Positions 53,830 to 55,416 of a stretch of 64,000 nucleotides of DNA are shown piece by piece; position 1 is the first letter of the stretch; each line of letters opens with the position of its first letter. A program made the translations under genes and the position numbers. A model generated the notes under the pieces. That model had not been told where the DNA came from, searched no databases, and saw only the letters and a list, made by a program, of their open reading frames with translations. The DNA comes from an uncultured Clostridium sp. (GTDB lineage: Bacteria; Bacillota; Clostridia; TANB77; CAG-508). The stretch is taken from positions 17,750 through 81,749 of the forward strand of contig USEM01000001.1 of NCBI GenBank assembly GCA_900553695.1, read 5' to 3'.

Positions 53830-55416
53830 TTACTCGCTAACTGTATATCCGCTTGAACTATCATAAGACAATTGGATATCAGATTTTAGATAAACTACTG
53901 GACGAACACCGTAGTCGCTGGGGTAGTAATTGGTACCATCAGCGGCGTACAAATTGCCGCGTTTATCGTAGCCATCGGTATAAACAAGGCGCGCGTAATA
54001 GGTCACATTGCGATCGTCATAGCTAAGATAACGCGAAGCCAGCCAATAGTGCGTATCCGCCTTACTTACCTCTGTTGACAAAGTTCGACTTCCGCTATAT
54101 GTATATTGGTACATTGTTACATATGAATTTGCAGTTGTTGATAATGATTTCCATGTATGGCTTGATGAAGTTTCATCTGTTGAATTACTTGCATCTAATG
54201 CCATATAATTAAAGGTGGTATATCTTCCTCCTGTTGTGCTTGTCCCATCTACCGTTGCATTTGCTGCATATCTATATACTTTTCCATCTGAATGTCTTGC
54301 ATATTTATAACTTGCTGTTCTGGTTAATGCTCCATAACCTAAGTCTTCCATCTTAAAGCTTCTGCCTCCACTTGTGCTAAATTTTGTTGTATCTGCATAC
54401 TTGCCTTTTCCATATACTGCACTTATTTTATTTAATTCATCTATAAAATTTGTATAGCCATTTTGACCTTGTATCATTAAATATTTAAAGTTCCCACTTG
54501 TATATCCCCCACTTGTTGGTTGTACTATGTTTTTTGTAGTTATTTTAATTTGCCCATTTTCTTCTCCTAACACTATCCATTGTATTCCACTATTATTTAC
54601 TACCGAATATGTTGCATTTGAATCACTGCTATCTGTGCTTCCTCTCGTTGTTTTTGTTGATGTATAACTTGATGATACTGTTCCTCCACTTTCGCTTATG
54701 TATTCATGGTAATTTATATTTGCTCCTATAACTAGTTCTTGTTTTTCTCCACATCTCGTACATGTTCCATTTACATAGTTATGCCCTAATTTTGCAATTG
54801 ATTGGCTTTGTGTTGCTCCACATCCTGTACAAGTTTTTGTTTTGATTCCATCTGCTGTACATGTTGCCTGTTTTGTTACTTGCCATTCTCCATATGTATG
54901 TACTCCTGTTGCTGGTATTGTTTCTACTTCTTCTACTCCACATACTGTACATGTTCTCTTTTTTGAGCCTTCTGCTACACATGTTGCATTTTTTGTTATT
55001 ACCCAATCTCCAAATGTATGGTTTTCGCATCCTGGTTCTTTTTCTCCACATCTTGTGCATACTCTATTTTCATAGTTATGCCCTAATGCTGGTATTTCTA
55101 CTTCTAATAGCTTTCCACAATTTTCACATACCTTTTGCTTTTTTCCTGCCTCTGTACATGTTGGCTCTAAAAGTGTTTCTCCATCTTTCCAATTGTGTGA
55201 ACAATAATCTTTTTCTATTTCGTCCCATTCATTCATTAATTCATCCATTATAGTTTGCTGTTCATTTACTTTTGCATTTGTGCCATCTACTGCCTTTTGT
55301 GCATTACTAAACAAATTTCCCTTAATAATTACATTTACACTTACTCCAACAAGTATTAAAAGTAAAATTACTGTAATTATGAGTGCTATTAATGTTATAC
55401 CTCTGTTTTTCTTCAT
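53830..55416 (-). CDS. surface protein: pseudopilin-like N-terminal anchor, tandem Cys-rich (zinc-ribbon-like) repeats, and a C-terminal domain whose last about 70 codons (53880-54080) use foreign, GC-rich codons
   Basis: MKKNRGITLIALIITVILLLILVG N-terminus; repeated TCTxxGxKxxTCxxCG...IPALGHNY modules; tail ..THYWLASRY..YGVRPVVYL encoded with GCG/CGC/ACC/GGC/CTG codons. Confidence 0.6.
   Translation of the reverse strand: MKKNRGITLIALIITVILLLILVGVSVNVIIKGNLFSNAQKAVDGTNAKVNEQQTIMDELMNEWDEIEKDYCSHNWKDGETLLEPTCTEAGKKQKVCENCGKLLEVEIPALGHNYENRVCTRCGEKEPGCENHTFGDWVITKNATCVAEGSKKRTCTVCGVEEVETIPATGVHTYGEWQVTKQATCTADGIKTKTCTGCGATQSQSIAKLGHNYVNGTCTRCGEKQELVIGANINYHEYISESGGTVSSSYTSTKTTRGSTDSSDSNATYSVVNNSGIQWIVLGEENGQIKITTKNIVQPTSGGYTSGNFKYLMIQGQNGYTNFIDELNKISAVYGKGKYADTTKFSTSGGRSFKMEDLGYGALTRTASYKYARHSDGKVYRYAANATVDGTSTTGGRYTTFNYMALDASNSTDETSSSHTWKSLSTTANSYVTMYQYTYSGSRTLSTEVSKADTHYWLASRYLSYDDRNVTYYARLVYTDGYDKRGNLYAADGTNYYPSDYGVRPVVYLKSDIQLSYDSSSGYTVSE

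What the first reader, a model, noticed from the sequence alone, without database searches (positions are those of the whole stretch)
53880..54080. Foreign-codon, GC-rich C-terminal tail on the Cys-repeat surface protein. The NNY-rich variable-region-like patch suggests a possible DGR target or a cassette swap
Within one continuous ORF the last about 70 codons switch from the genome's AT-rich usage to GCG/CGC/ACC/GGC/GAC/CTG codons at about 50% GC. The encoded tail (..THYWLASRYLSYDDRNVTYYARLVYTDGYDKRGNLYAADGTNYYPSDYGVRPVVYLKS..) is dominated by NNY codons (Tyr, Asp, Asn, Ser, Thr, Arg, Gly). These are framed by YWLAS and VRPV motifs.

This organisation resembles the C-type-lectin/DUF1566-like variable regions of diversity-generating retroelement targets. 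Alternatively it is a recently recombined foreign domain.
Basis: partly seen in the sequence, partly recalled or inferred. Interest (0 to 1): 0.65.

Follow-up and report, generated by a model that had tools for sequence, protein, structure and literature searches.

The report
Retroelement-written variable tip of surface protein
The GC-rich tail of this pilin-like surface protein has the sequence signature of a variable region written by a diversity-generating retroelement, but the retroelement's template and reverse transcriptase are not in this window, and the tail now looks largely fixed in natural populations.

Summary
Codons 458-507 of the 528-aa gene (window 53830-55416, minus strand) have GC 0.51, A 0.21, GC3 0.52 and 82% NNY codons. 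The rest of the gene has 0.34, 0.44, 0.17 and 35%.

The patch is the only hypervariable part of a gene module present at four or more chromosomal loci. It varies at codon positions 1 and 2. Invariant residues use A-free codons.

I inferred a template peptide by writing A at every variable site. That peptide retrieved a real template repeat next to a related gene (L017): 144 nt, 23 mismatches, all at template adenines. Sites that are A in that template are the sites that vary in the window's family (38/47 against 21/97, p=1e-11).

So the tail is a DGR-type variable region, and the composition anomaly follows from adenine mutagenesis rather than from a foreign domain. No template repeat or reverse transcriptase occurs in the 64-kb window or in the 10-kb flanks of four paralogous loci. 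Each paralogue's variable region is nearly identical across many samples. The gene is therefore a remote or orphaned target, rarely or no longer rewritten.

The C-terminal domain models confidently but matches no solved fold.

Separately, a hypervariable (CA)n/(TA)n tract in an upstream leader ORF predicts phase-variable expression.

The parts
53830..55416 (-). Target gene, 528 aa. It comprises a pilin-like N-terminal hydrophobic segment, four Cys-x2-Cys-Gly repeats, a beta-rich C-terminal domain and a variable region near the C-terminus.
   Evidence: ORF list and translation. More than 3,000 homologues were found. The same gene with 98.5-100% identical surroundings occurs in metagenome contigs L001-L004 and L015.
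53895..54051 (-). Variable region (VR). The variable sites run from 54051 to 53916. By analogy with L017, the tract expected to match a template repeat runs from the GG of the Trp codon (54044) to GTAG (53895).
   Evidence: - GC 0.51 and A 0.21.
- 24 mismatches in 136 nt against the same locus in L015, where the 20-kb background is 1.5%.
- Variable columns by codon position are 29/27/18 of 48 in the VR, against 45/35/109 of 482 outside it.
- Variable sites coincide with the adenines of the L017 template: 38/47 against 21/97, Fisher p=1.1e-11.
53874..53910 (-). Invariant 3' flank of the VR (GGTGTTCGTCCAGTAG TTTATCTAAAATCTGATATCC). This is a candidate initiation-of-mutagenic-homing (IMH) region.
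   Evidence: It is identical in paralogues A, B and D (L013 and L006 carry one or two substitutions). In L017, VR and TR share GGAGTTCGTCCCGTAG and then diverge, as IMH and IMH* do. Its function here is inferred, not tested. Only a weak DNA hairpin lies downstream.
53833..54720 (-). C-terminal beta-rich domain (aa 233-528) that carries the VR.
   Evidence: The AlphaFold2 model built on a 79-sequence alignment has pLDDT 95.7 and pTM 0.93. There was no Foldseek match below E=1e-3 in PDB or BFVD, and no Pfam family. phrog_9958 matches aa 448-519 at E=1.8e-6.
54742..55203 (-). Cys-rich repeat region: four units of ..TC(T)xxG..x..CxxCG..(G)H.
   Evidence: Translation. Internal direct repeats of 120 nt and 61 nt (D1 and D3). 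No Pfam family.
55318..55416 (-). N-terminal prepilin-like segment, MKKNRGITLIALIITVILLLILVGVSV.
   Evidence: Pfam N_methyl scores 16.7 bits, below the 21.2 cutoff. The family profile matches the N-terminal helix of solved type IV pilins at E=3e-4 to 1e-2. Position +5 after the Gly is Ala, not the canonical Glu (read from the sequence).
55513..55590 (-). Leader ORF (uORF), 25 aa in this copy, preceded by the ribosome-binding site AGGAGG.
   Evidence: The long reading frame encodes a conserved tail (..NKTSIFSYALLKL.RDG) in L003, L005 and L016. Gene callers annotated this ORF at 35-38 aa in L005, L013 and L016.
55533..55555 (-). Dinucleotide repeat (AC)11 inside the leader ORF.
   Evidence: The repeat number is 11, 17, 13, 12 and 11 in the window and L001-L004, which are otherwise near-identical. 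The other paralogues and alleles carry (TA)4-13 at the same place, except locus C (L013), which has no tract. The repeat number sets the uORF reading frame.
55450..55473 (-). Terminator-like hairpin (AAGAGATGGATAAGTCCGTCTCTT followed by TTTTGT) between the leader ORF and the main ribosome-binding site. This is a candidate attenuator.
   Evidence: Consensus scan and RNA fold. The stop codon of the long-frame uORF lies in the hairpin loop. The regulatory role is inferred.
55649..55688 (-). 5' boundary of the duplicated module: a palindrome/terminator-like element followed by promoter-like hexamers.
   Evidence: Homology between paralogous loci starts at window position 55688. Hairpin at 55677-55649 and promoter-like sites at 55685-55631.
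53775..53805 (-). Intrinsic terminator of the gene.
   Evidence: 13-bp stem followed by a T-run.

Best explanation
The GC-rich, NNY-rich patch (window 54051-53895) is a diversity-generating-retroelement (DGR) type variable region.

**How the sequence was written (inferred from known DGR biology).** An RNA copy of an adenine-rich template repeat was reverse-transcribed, with random bases inserted opposite template adenines. The cDNA then replaced this stretch of the gene.
- Template AAY codons therefore became NNY codons.
- Residues that must not change are encoded without adenine.
- In a 30%-GC genome this automatically produces an A-poor, GC-rich island with 'foreign' codon usage.

**Genomic setting (shown).** The gene is one of at least four dispersed paralogous modules, each with its own variable region. 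None has a template repeat or a reverse transcriptase nearby.

**Status (inferred).** The window copy is therefore a remote (trans) target or an orphaned one. Each paralogue's variable region is nearly the same in many independent samples, so I think rewriting is now rare or has stopped in this lineage.

**Function (inferred).** The protein is predicted to be anchored or assembled through a pilin-like N-terminal helix and to present the variable region on a beta-rich C-terminal domain as a ligand-binding surface. Expression of each paralogue is probably switched by a dinucleotide repeat in a leader ORF.
For: **Shown**
1. Composition anomaly.
2. Among 49 proteins that are 85-100% identical, positions with no majority residue are confined to the stretch between YWLASR and GVRPVVYLKS.
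3. Same locus, another strain (L015): 98.5% identity over 20 kb, but 24 mismatches in 136 nt of the VR.
4. Variable columns by codon position are 29/27/18 of 48 in the VR and 45/35/109 of 482 elsewhere. 57 of 74 variable VR columns include A. Only 9 of 70 invariant columns are A.
5. A template peptide predicted only from the variation pattern retrieved P0121. Its contig L017 holds a VR (464-607) and a TR (776-919), 144 nt long, with 23 mismatches, all 23 at template adenines.
6. The L017 target belongs to the same pilin-like family.
7. L017 template adenines predict which sites vary in the window's family: odds ratio 15, p=1.1e-11.
8. The L017 VR shows the same composition shift: GC 0.56 and A 0.17, against 0.32 and 0.39 in the flanks.

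**From the literature**
- DGRs act on non-adjacent targets (PMC5758913).
- Treponema denticola has up to seven dispersed targets, and isolates without RT or TR still carry such VRs (PMC4891356).

**Inferred:** the homing mechanism, the binding role and the present inactivity.
Against: - **No template or RT found.** None was found for this VR in the window (RT domains), in any fetched flank, or in viral contigs searched with correctly bounded patterns.
- **Two scans were poorly designed.** The genome and metagenome scans found only chance hits or another VR. Their patterns began 5 nt and 1 nt upstream of the likely template boundary, so they could have missed a template.
- **Non-adenine changes occur.** Some VR differences are at third codon positions or other non-adenine sites (ATG, TGG, CGA, AAA).
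- **Allele pattern is atypical.** The two locus-A alleles share most mutated states, mainly in the 3' half, and differ mainly in the 5' half. This is the opposite of what 3'-anchored partial homing predicts.
- **VRs are stable across samples**.
- **Nine adenines inside the tract are invariant**.
- **No C-type-lectin fold or Pfam family was detected**.
Confidence: 0.8

Rival explanations
1. Active remote target. A complete DGR (template repeat, reverse transcriptase, possibly avd) sits elsewhere in this genome or on a resident prophage, and it still rewrites this and the other paralogous variable regions in trans. This rival differs from the best explanation only on present activity. Both accept a DGR origin.
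For: - Trans action on distant targets is established (PMC5758913; T. denticola).
- The 3' flank of the VR is identical in most paralogues and nearly so in the rest, as a shared homing site would be.
- Locus A has two alleles that differ at 23-24 VR sites in a 98.5%-identical background.
- A related cassette still has its template repeat.
- The genome and metagenome scans were not decisive because of where the patterns began.
Against: - Each paralogue's VR is almost invariant across 13-15 cluster members found on many contigs and in many samples.
- Proteins that are 92-93% identical elsewhere share an identical VR.
- No RT or TR lies in 64 kb plus about 80 kb of paralogue flanks.
- No template was found in viral contigs.
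- Several homologues carry frameshifts inside the VR.
Confidence: 0.3
2. Paralogue gene conversion with diversifying selection and no retroelement. The variable tails are shuffled among the dispersed copies, as in pilE/pilS-type antigenic variation. Selection for binding diversity then explains the excess of non-synonymous change.
For: - Recombination between copies does occur. Contig L016 joins the upstream side of locus B to the downstream side of locus A through the gene.
- One cluster-1 member carries the VR of another paralogue (P0285).
- Alleles at loci A and B share the 3' half of the VR.
- The N-terminus is pilin-like.
Against: - Shuffling moves diversity but does not create it.
- It does not explain why invariant residues avoid adenine, or why variable codons are NNY.
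- It does not explain why the variable sites match the adenines of a real template repeat in a relative (p=1e-11).
- It does not explain the GC island.
- No silent partial cassettes were seen in the window or the flanks.
Confidence: 0.07
3. Horizontal mosaic. A segment from a higher-GC organism was recombined into the 3' end of the gene.
For: Codon usage changes abruptly (GC3 0.52 against 0.17). A second, unrelated GC-rich island lies 1.7 kb away (55777-56047).
Against: - The GC-rich patch sits inside one conserved domain, and the AT-rich flanks are conserved on both sides.
- All paralogues and distant family members have the patch at the same place.
- The boundaries of the patch coincide with the boundaries of variability.
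- The excess is specifically a deficit of A (0.21 against 0.44), as in a proven VR.
- No similar DNA was found in the phage or plasmid collections.
Confidence: 0.03

Closest known systems
Treponema denticola DGR with dispersed TvpA-family targets (PMC4891356)
   Same: - Several paralogous target genes are scattered around the chromosome.
- Each has a different C-terminal variable region, and the VRs differ from each other mostly at template-adenine sites.
- Some isolates have neither RT nor TR but keep such VRs.
- Truncated or 'suspicious' targets occur.
   Different: - There, the template and RT are known, the targets are lipoproteins, and the fold is a solved C-type-lectin/FGE fold.
- Here, no TR or RT has been located for this species, the proteins have a pilin-like N-terminus and Cys-rich repeats, and the modelled domain matched no solved fold.
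- Here, each copy also has a dinucleotide repeat in a leader ORF.
Canonical DGR cassette (Bordetella phage BPP-1 mtd-avd-TR-brt; survey in PMC5758913)
   Same: - The variable region lies at the C-terminal end.
- AAY-to-NNY codon logic applies.
- Scaffold codons are free of adenine.
- A conserved GC-rich 3' flank is present.
- A relative (L017) has the VR followed about 170 nt later by the TR, with 23/23 mismatches at adenines.
   Different: - The window gene is not adjacent to any cassette part.
- It is chromosomal, in a housekeeping neighbourhood (HtrA, RNase HII, PcrA), not on a phage.
- No phage relatives were found.
Type IV pilins and pseudopilins
   Same: The N-terminal motif is basic residues, then Gly, then a run of about 20 hydrophobic residues. 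The family profile aligns to the N-terminal helix of solved pilins. A second small pilin-like ORF lies directly downstream (53184-53633).
   Different: - The match is below Pfam's threshold.
- There is no Glu at +5.
- The protein is 528 aa, with a large non-pilin body.
- No pilus assembly genes were identified next to it.
- DGR targets with a GspG-type pilin domain are reported only as rare cases (PMC11661182).
Simple-sequence-repeat contingency loci (for example, phase-variable surface proteins such as Neisseria Opa)
   Same: A short tandem repeat differs in copy number between near-identical strains and changes a reading frame upstream of a surface-protein gene. A family of paralogues is present, each with its own switch.
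   Different: The repeat is a dinucleotide inside a separate leader ORF that ends in a terminator-like hairpin, not inside the structural gene or its promoter spacer. The on/off effect is predicted, not measured.

Membership tests
DGR target gene / variable region | Variable region at or near the 3' end of an ORF, confined to about 100-150 nt | tested here: met
   Variability is confined to codons 456-502 of 528.
DGR target gene / variable region | A cognate template repeat in the same genome that differs from the VR only (or mostly) at template adenines | tested here: inconclusive
   - Absent from the window, from all fetched flanks and from viral contigs.
- The genome and metagenome scans used patterns that overshot the likely 5' boundary.
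- The rest of the genome could not be read.
- A relative's cassette (L017) meets the feature: 23/23 mismatches at A.
DGR target gene / variable region | A DGR-clade reverse transcriptase | tested here: not met
   No RVT-type Pfam domain was found in about 44 window ORFs. None appeared in the precomputed annotation of flanks at loci A-D. 'Not met' applies to the DNA that could be examined. The whole genome was not available.
DGR target gene / variable region | Adenine-specific substitution pattern: AAY to NNY, codon positions 1 and 2 variable, scaffold codons A-free | tested here: met
   Codon-position counts. 82% NNY codons. Association with the adenines of a real related template, p=1.1e-11. 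Exceptions exist: third-position changes and 9 invariant A.
DGR target gene / variable region | Ongoing hypervariation within populations | tested here: not met
   Cluster members from many samples share the same VR per paralogue. Only a few alleles were seen. Read-level data were not available.
DGR target gene / variable region | IMH at the 3' end of the VR, with IMH* in the TR | tested here: inconclusive
   The GC-rich flank is conserved in all paralogues. In L017, VR and TR diverge right after GTAG. Without the TR of this species, the IMH/IMH* contrast cannot be scored.
C-type lectin / FGE-sulfatase / DUF1566 fold of DGR variable proteins | Sequence or structure match to the CLec-type fold | tested here: not met
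   - No Pfam hit even at E<=10, and none in 77 family members.
- No PDB sequence match for the domain.
- The confident model (pLDDT 95.7) gave no Foldseek hit below 1e-3 in PDB or BFVD.
Type IV pilin (prepilin-type N-terminal methylation domain) | N_methyl motif above threshold, with Gly at -1 and Glu at +5 | tested here: not met
   N_methyl scores 16.7 bits, below the 21.2 cutoff. 18 of 77 family members match it weakly. The profile aligns to pilin N-terminal helices at E=3e-4. Position +5 is Ala (read from the sequence).
Simple-sequence-repeat phase-variation locus | Repeat copy number varies between closely related strains and changes a reading frame or promoter | tested here: met
   (AC)n has n=11, 17, 13, 12 and 11 in near-identical locus-A contigs. 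The three uORF outcomes follow n mod 3.
Simple-sequence-repeat phase-variation locus | The change switches expression of the downstream gene | not testable with these tools
   Only the geometry is known: the long-frame stop codon lies in the loop of a terminator-like hairpin 44 nt before the main ATG.

The most novel reading that the evidence does not exclude
A two-tier variation system in a gut spore-former. A retroelement, now lost or rarely active, wrote a different binding tip into each of several dispersed copies of a pilin-like surface protein. This created a stored repertoire. A hypervariable dinucleotide repeat in a leader peptide that overlaps an attenuator then switches each copy on or off independently. 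The binding domain itself may be a fold not yet seen among DGR targets.
Probability: 0.3. Interest if true: 0.7.

Novelty: new member of a known kind. Interest (0 to 1): 0.5.

Why it matters
**What it explains.** A striking local codon-usage anomaly is explained without horizontal transfer. A-poor, NNY-rich, GC-rich islands inside AT-rich genes can serve as a reference-free marker of DGR variable regions, including remote or orphaned ones that cassette-based DGR finders miss.

**What it adds.** It adds a small, previously unannotated protein family to the list of likely DGR targets. The family has about 160 clusters at 50% identity, a pilin-like N-terminus and the C-terminal motif YWLAS...GVRPVVYLKS.

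**What it could show if the leader-repeat switch is real.** It would show how a bacterium can combine slow, retroelement-written diversity with fast on/off switching of surface proteins in the human gut.

Tried and rejected
**Searches for the template repeat**
- Inside the window and in all 23 fetched loci, using repeat finder and blastn with 7-nt words. Only the VRs themselves were found.
- Scan of one genome per species with CTATTGGCTGGCTTCGCGT. It returned four chance hits in unrelated phyla. After I saw L017, it was clear that this pattern starts 5 nt before the likely template boundary.
- Metagenome scan with a template-specific pattern. It returned only another VR, L012. The first base of that pattern is probably outside the template as well.
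- Five viral-contig pattern scans: four for this VR (two of them correctly bounded) and one for the L017 template. All returned nothing.
- One viral-contig protein search: nothing.
- blastn and tblastn against the phage and plasmid collections: nothing.

**Searches for the RT**
- No RT domain in the window ORFs or in the L012/L014/L006/L013 ORFs.

**Attempts to extend the L017 cassette to its RT**
- P0181/L018 has a serine recombinase downstream and no TR.
- The P0385 contigs end 200-450 nt after the gene and hold no TR.
- P0380/L023 lacks the TR at the homologous place, and its VR is decayed.

**Structure**
- The second, built on 79 diverse sequences, succeeded.

**The second GC island**
- I considered whether 55777-56047 is the template repeat or a structured RNA. 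It has no similarity to the VR, no Rfam family and no protein family.
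Full report

Yes.
- GC climbs to 0.495 in the 200-nt window 53900-54099. The mean for the 64 kb is 0.297, and the peak 150-nt value is 0.513, 4.5 sd above the mean.
- Codons 458-507 have GC 0.51, A 0.21, GC3 0.52 and 82% NNY codons. The rest of the gene has 0.34, 0.44, 0.17 and 35%. Neighbouring housekeeping genes have GC3 of 0.13-0.16.
- The anomalous stretch is about 50 codons rather than 70, and 21 ordinary AT-rich codons follow it.

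**2. The gene and its setting**

The protein has four parts:
- a prepilin-like N-terminus (MKKNRGITLIALIITVILLLILVG; Pfam N_methyl at 16.7 bits, below threshold);
- four Cys-x2-Cys-Gly repeats;
- a C-terminal domain of about 300 aa with no Pfam match;
- the variable patch.

The neighbours are housekeeping genes: PcrA, pyrimidine-nucleoside phosphorylase, RNase HII, a small pilin-like ORF, HtrA and an ABC transporter.

The gene is part of a duplicated module, window 55688-53830, which includes about 270 nt of leader. The module sits at four or more unrelated chromosomal places in the same species:
- locus A, as in the window (L001-L004, L015);
- locus B, next to rplL/CorA (L005, L006, L011);
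- locus C, next to SpoIIR/UDPGP (L013);
- locus D, next to AspRS/ClpB (L014).

Outside the patch, the copies are 88-92% identical in DNA.

**3. The patch is the variable part**

- Among 49 proteins that are 85-100% identical, positions with no majority residue lie only between YWLASR and GVRPVVYLKS.
- At the same locus in another strain (L015), identity is 98.5% over 20 kb, about 3 mismatches per 200 nt. The 136 nt from 53916 to 54051 carry 24 mismatches.
- In a codon alignment of eight copies, variable columns by codon position are 29/27/18 of 48 inside the patch and 45/35/109 of 482 outside it. The usual excess at third positions is reversed.
- 57 of 74 variable columns include A. Only 9 of 70 invariant columns are A. 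The invariant residues (W, L, A, S, R, V, A-R, V, G, L, G, G-V-R-P) use codons without adenine.

This is the pattern expected if a template with AAY codons is copied with random bases opposite adenine.

**4. An independent test of the DGR reading**

I wrote A at every variable site and translated the result. This gave a predicted template peptide..NYWLASRNLNYNNNNVNYNARNVNT.GNNNNNNLYNSNGNNNNNNYGVRPV... I then searched the 5.8-billion-protein collection with it.

The single hit, P0121, is a 78-aa ORF on a 1-kb contig (L017).
- L017 carries the 3' end of a related gene, with the tail ..YYWLASP...YGVRPVVSLQSDIQL.. .
- About 170 nt after the end of that gene's variable region lies a 144-nt repeat of the region.
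- The repeat has 23 mismatches, and all 23 are at adenines of the downstream copy.

This is a textbook template-repeat/variable-region pair. The L017 target belongs to the same pilin-like family.

I then aligned the sequences codon by codon. Sites that are A in the L017 template are variable among the window's paralogues in 38 of 47 cases. Non-A sites are variable in 21 of 97 cases (odds ratio 15, Fisher p=1.1e-11). The L017 variable region shows the same composition shift as the window patch (GC 0.56, A 0.17, against 0.32 and 0.39 in its flanks).

The 'foreign codon usage' is therefore a by-product of adenine avoidance and adenine mutagenesis, not evidence of a foreign domain.

**5. Where are the template and the reverse transcriptase?**

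They were not found.
- The window has no second copy of the patch.
- It has no reverse-transcriptase domain in the roughly 44 ORFs tested.
- About 10 kb on each side of loci A-D in several strains has neither.
- Correctly bounded patterns found nothing in the viral contigs.
- Phage and plasmid collections have no similar DNA or protein.

My single scans of the genome and metagenome collections are weak evidence. L017 later showed that the template probably starts at the GG of the Trp codon, so both patterns began outside it.

A relative of L017 (L023, 77% identical) lacks the template at the homologous position and has a frameshifted, decayed tail. Cassettes are therefore gained and lost in this family.

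**6. Active or relic?**

Within each 90% cluster, the variable region is almost the same in 13-15 members drawn from many contigs and samples.
- Clusters 5, 6 and 7 are essentially invariant.
- Cluster 1 (locus A) has two main alleles plus point variants and one recombinant.

Other observations point the same way.
- Proteins that differ by 7-8% elsewhere can share the window's exact tail.
- 13 of 120 homologues lack an intact variable region or are frameshifted in or near it.
- The two locus-A alleles share most mutated states, mainly in the 3' half, and differ mainly in the 5' half. They also differ at some third positions. This pattern fits recombination and ordinary mutation better than a fresh 3'-anchored homing event.

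I therefore favour a variable region that was written by a DGR but is now rarely or never rewritten in this lineage. An active element elsewhere in the genome remains possible (about 0.3).

The closest precedent is Treponema denticola. One DGR serves up to seven dispersed targets there, and isolates without RT or TR keep adenine-patterned variable regions (PMC4891356). Action on non-adjacent targets is documented more generally (PMC5758913).

**7. Fold and family**

An exhaustive HMMER search found only 160 clusters (at 50% identity) related to the C-terminal domain.
- Most are 330-640 aa.
- Most have a GITLIALVITIIVLLILAG-type N-terminus.
- Most end in YWLAS...GVRPVVYLKS.

With 79 of these sequences in the alignment, AlphaFold2 gave a confident model (pLDDT 95.7, pTM 0.93). 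It is mostly beta, and the variable region spans four or five strands and their loops. Foldseek found nothing below E=1e-3 in PDB or BFVD. Sequence profiles matched solved structures only through the pilin-like N-terminal helix.

**8. A second layer of variation in the leader**

Upstream of the gene lies a small ORF with a strong ribosome-binding site (55590-55513 in this copy). It contains (AC)11 at 55533-55555.
- In contigs otherwise near-identical to the window, the repeat number is 11, 12, 13 or 17.
- Other paralogues and alleles carry (TA)4-13 at the same spot, except locus C (L013), which has no tract.
- When the repeat number is a multiple of three, the ORF reads through to a conserved tail (..NKTSIFSYALLKL.RDG). 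Its stop codon lies in the loop of a terminator-like hairpin (55473-55450), 44 nt before the main start codon.
- In the other two frames it stops 96-112 nt upstream.

This geometry predicts phase-variable expression through a leader-peptide attenuator. The window copy (n=11) is in a short frame. This is inferred from sequence only.

**9. Verdict**

- The DGR interpretation is supported for the origin of the patch (confidence about 0.8). It is unproven for present activity, because the template and RT were not located.
- The foreign-domain alternative is unlikely.
- In kind, this is a new member of a known class, a remote or orphaned DGR target. It has unusual features: a pilin-like multi-copy family, an unmatched fold and a repeat-controlled leader.
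- Interest is moderate.

Noticed in passing
window 55450-55590 (minus strand): A leader ORF upstream of the target gene contains (AC)11. The copy number differs among near-identical strains (11, 12, 13, 17), and other paralogues have (TA)4-13 at the same place. The reading frame decides whether the leader ORF ends in the loop of a terminator-like hairpin just before the main gene, which predicts phase variation by attenuation.
   Followed up: partly
window 55777-56047 (ORF 55804-56010, plus strand): A second GC-rich island (peak 0.50) holds a 68-aa ORF with a ribosome-binding site and a terminator.
- GC3 is 0.59, against 0.13-0.17 in neighbouring genes.
- It has no Pfam, NCBIfam, PHROG, Rfam or plasmid match.
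- Its RNA fold has z=-5.6.
- It lies just outside the duplicated module and was not found at the other loci, and it has no similarity to the variable region.

Its origin and function are unknown.
   Followed up: partly
L016 1-21587 (compare window 43830-55690): One metagenome contig has the upstream context of locus B (ribosomal proteins, CorA, ABC-F) joined through the paralogous gene to the downstream context of locus A (RNase HII, PcrA). This is either a chromosomal rearrangement between paralogues or a chimeric assembly.
   Followed up: partly
L011 11846-12847; L006 12243-12846; L014 1295-2203: PDDEXK_2/Rpn-type nuclease genes lie next to paralogous loci B and D. The first 88 nt of the duplicated module (window 55601-55688, with a palindrome) recur after the Rpn gene. 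This hints at how the module spread.
   Followed up: no
window 53184-53633 (minus strand): A 149-aa ORF directly downstream of the target gene also starts with a pilin-like hydrophobic segment (MKNEKGIALIGLVIVVLL..). It has only a weak match to a prepilin-peptidase-dependent protein.
   Followed up: no
homologues P0039, P0051, P0056, P0061-P0065, P0069, P0071, P0115, P0117; 451-aa and 309-aa cluster members: Many family members are frameshifted inside or just before the variable region (tails ending ..RSSSSSLSKI), or are truncated to the Cys-repeat part. Some sit on the same contigs as intact copies. These are either decaying paralogues or assembly errors in the variable tract.
   Followed up: partly
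window 41195-42647 (minus strand): Adenylosuccinate-lyase homology is split over two overlapping ORFs (41904-42647 and 41195-41986). This suggests a frameshift or a sequencing error.
   Followed up: no
window 28014-37084 (minus strand): Two very large ORFs (1522 and 1105 aa) with SdrD_B-like domains lie next to a sortase gene. This is probably a sortase-anchored adhesin or pilus cluster.
   Followed up: no
L019 11143-11286; L020 9320-9582: Contigs carrying the related target P0385 all break 200-450 nt after the gene, at copies of a roughly 30-nt direct repeat (GACTCTATGTCAATAGTTGGGGTGGAAAAC). The nature of the repeat was not examined.
   Followed up: no
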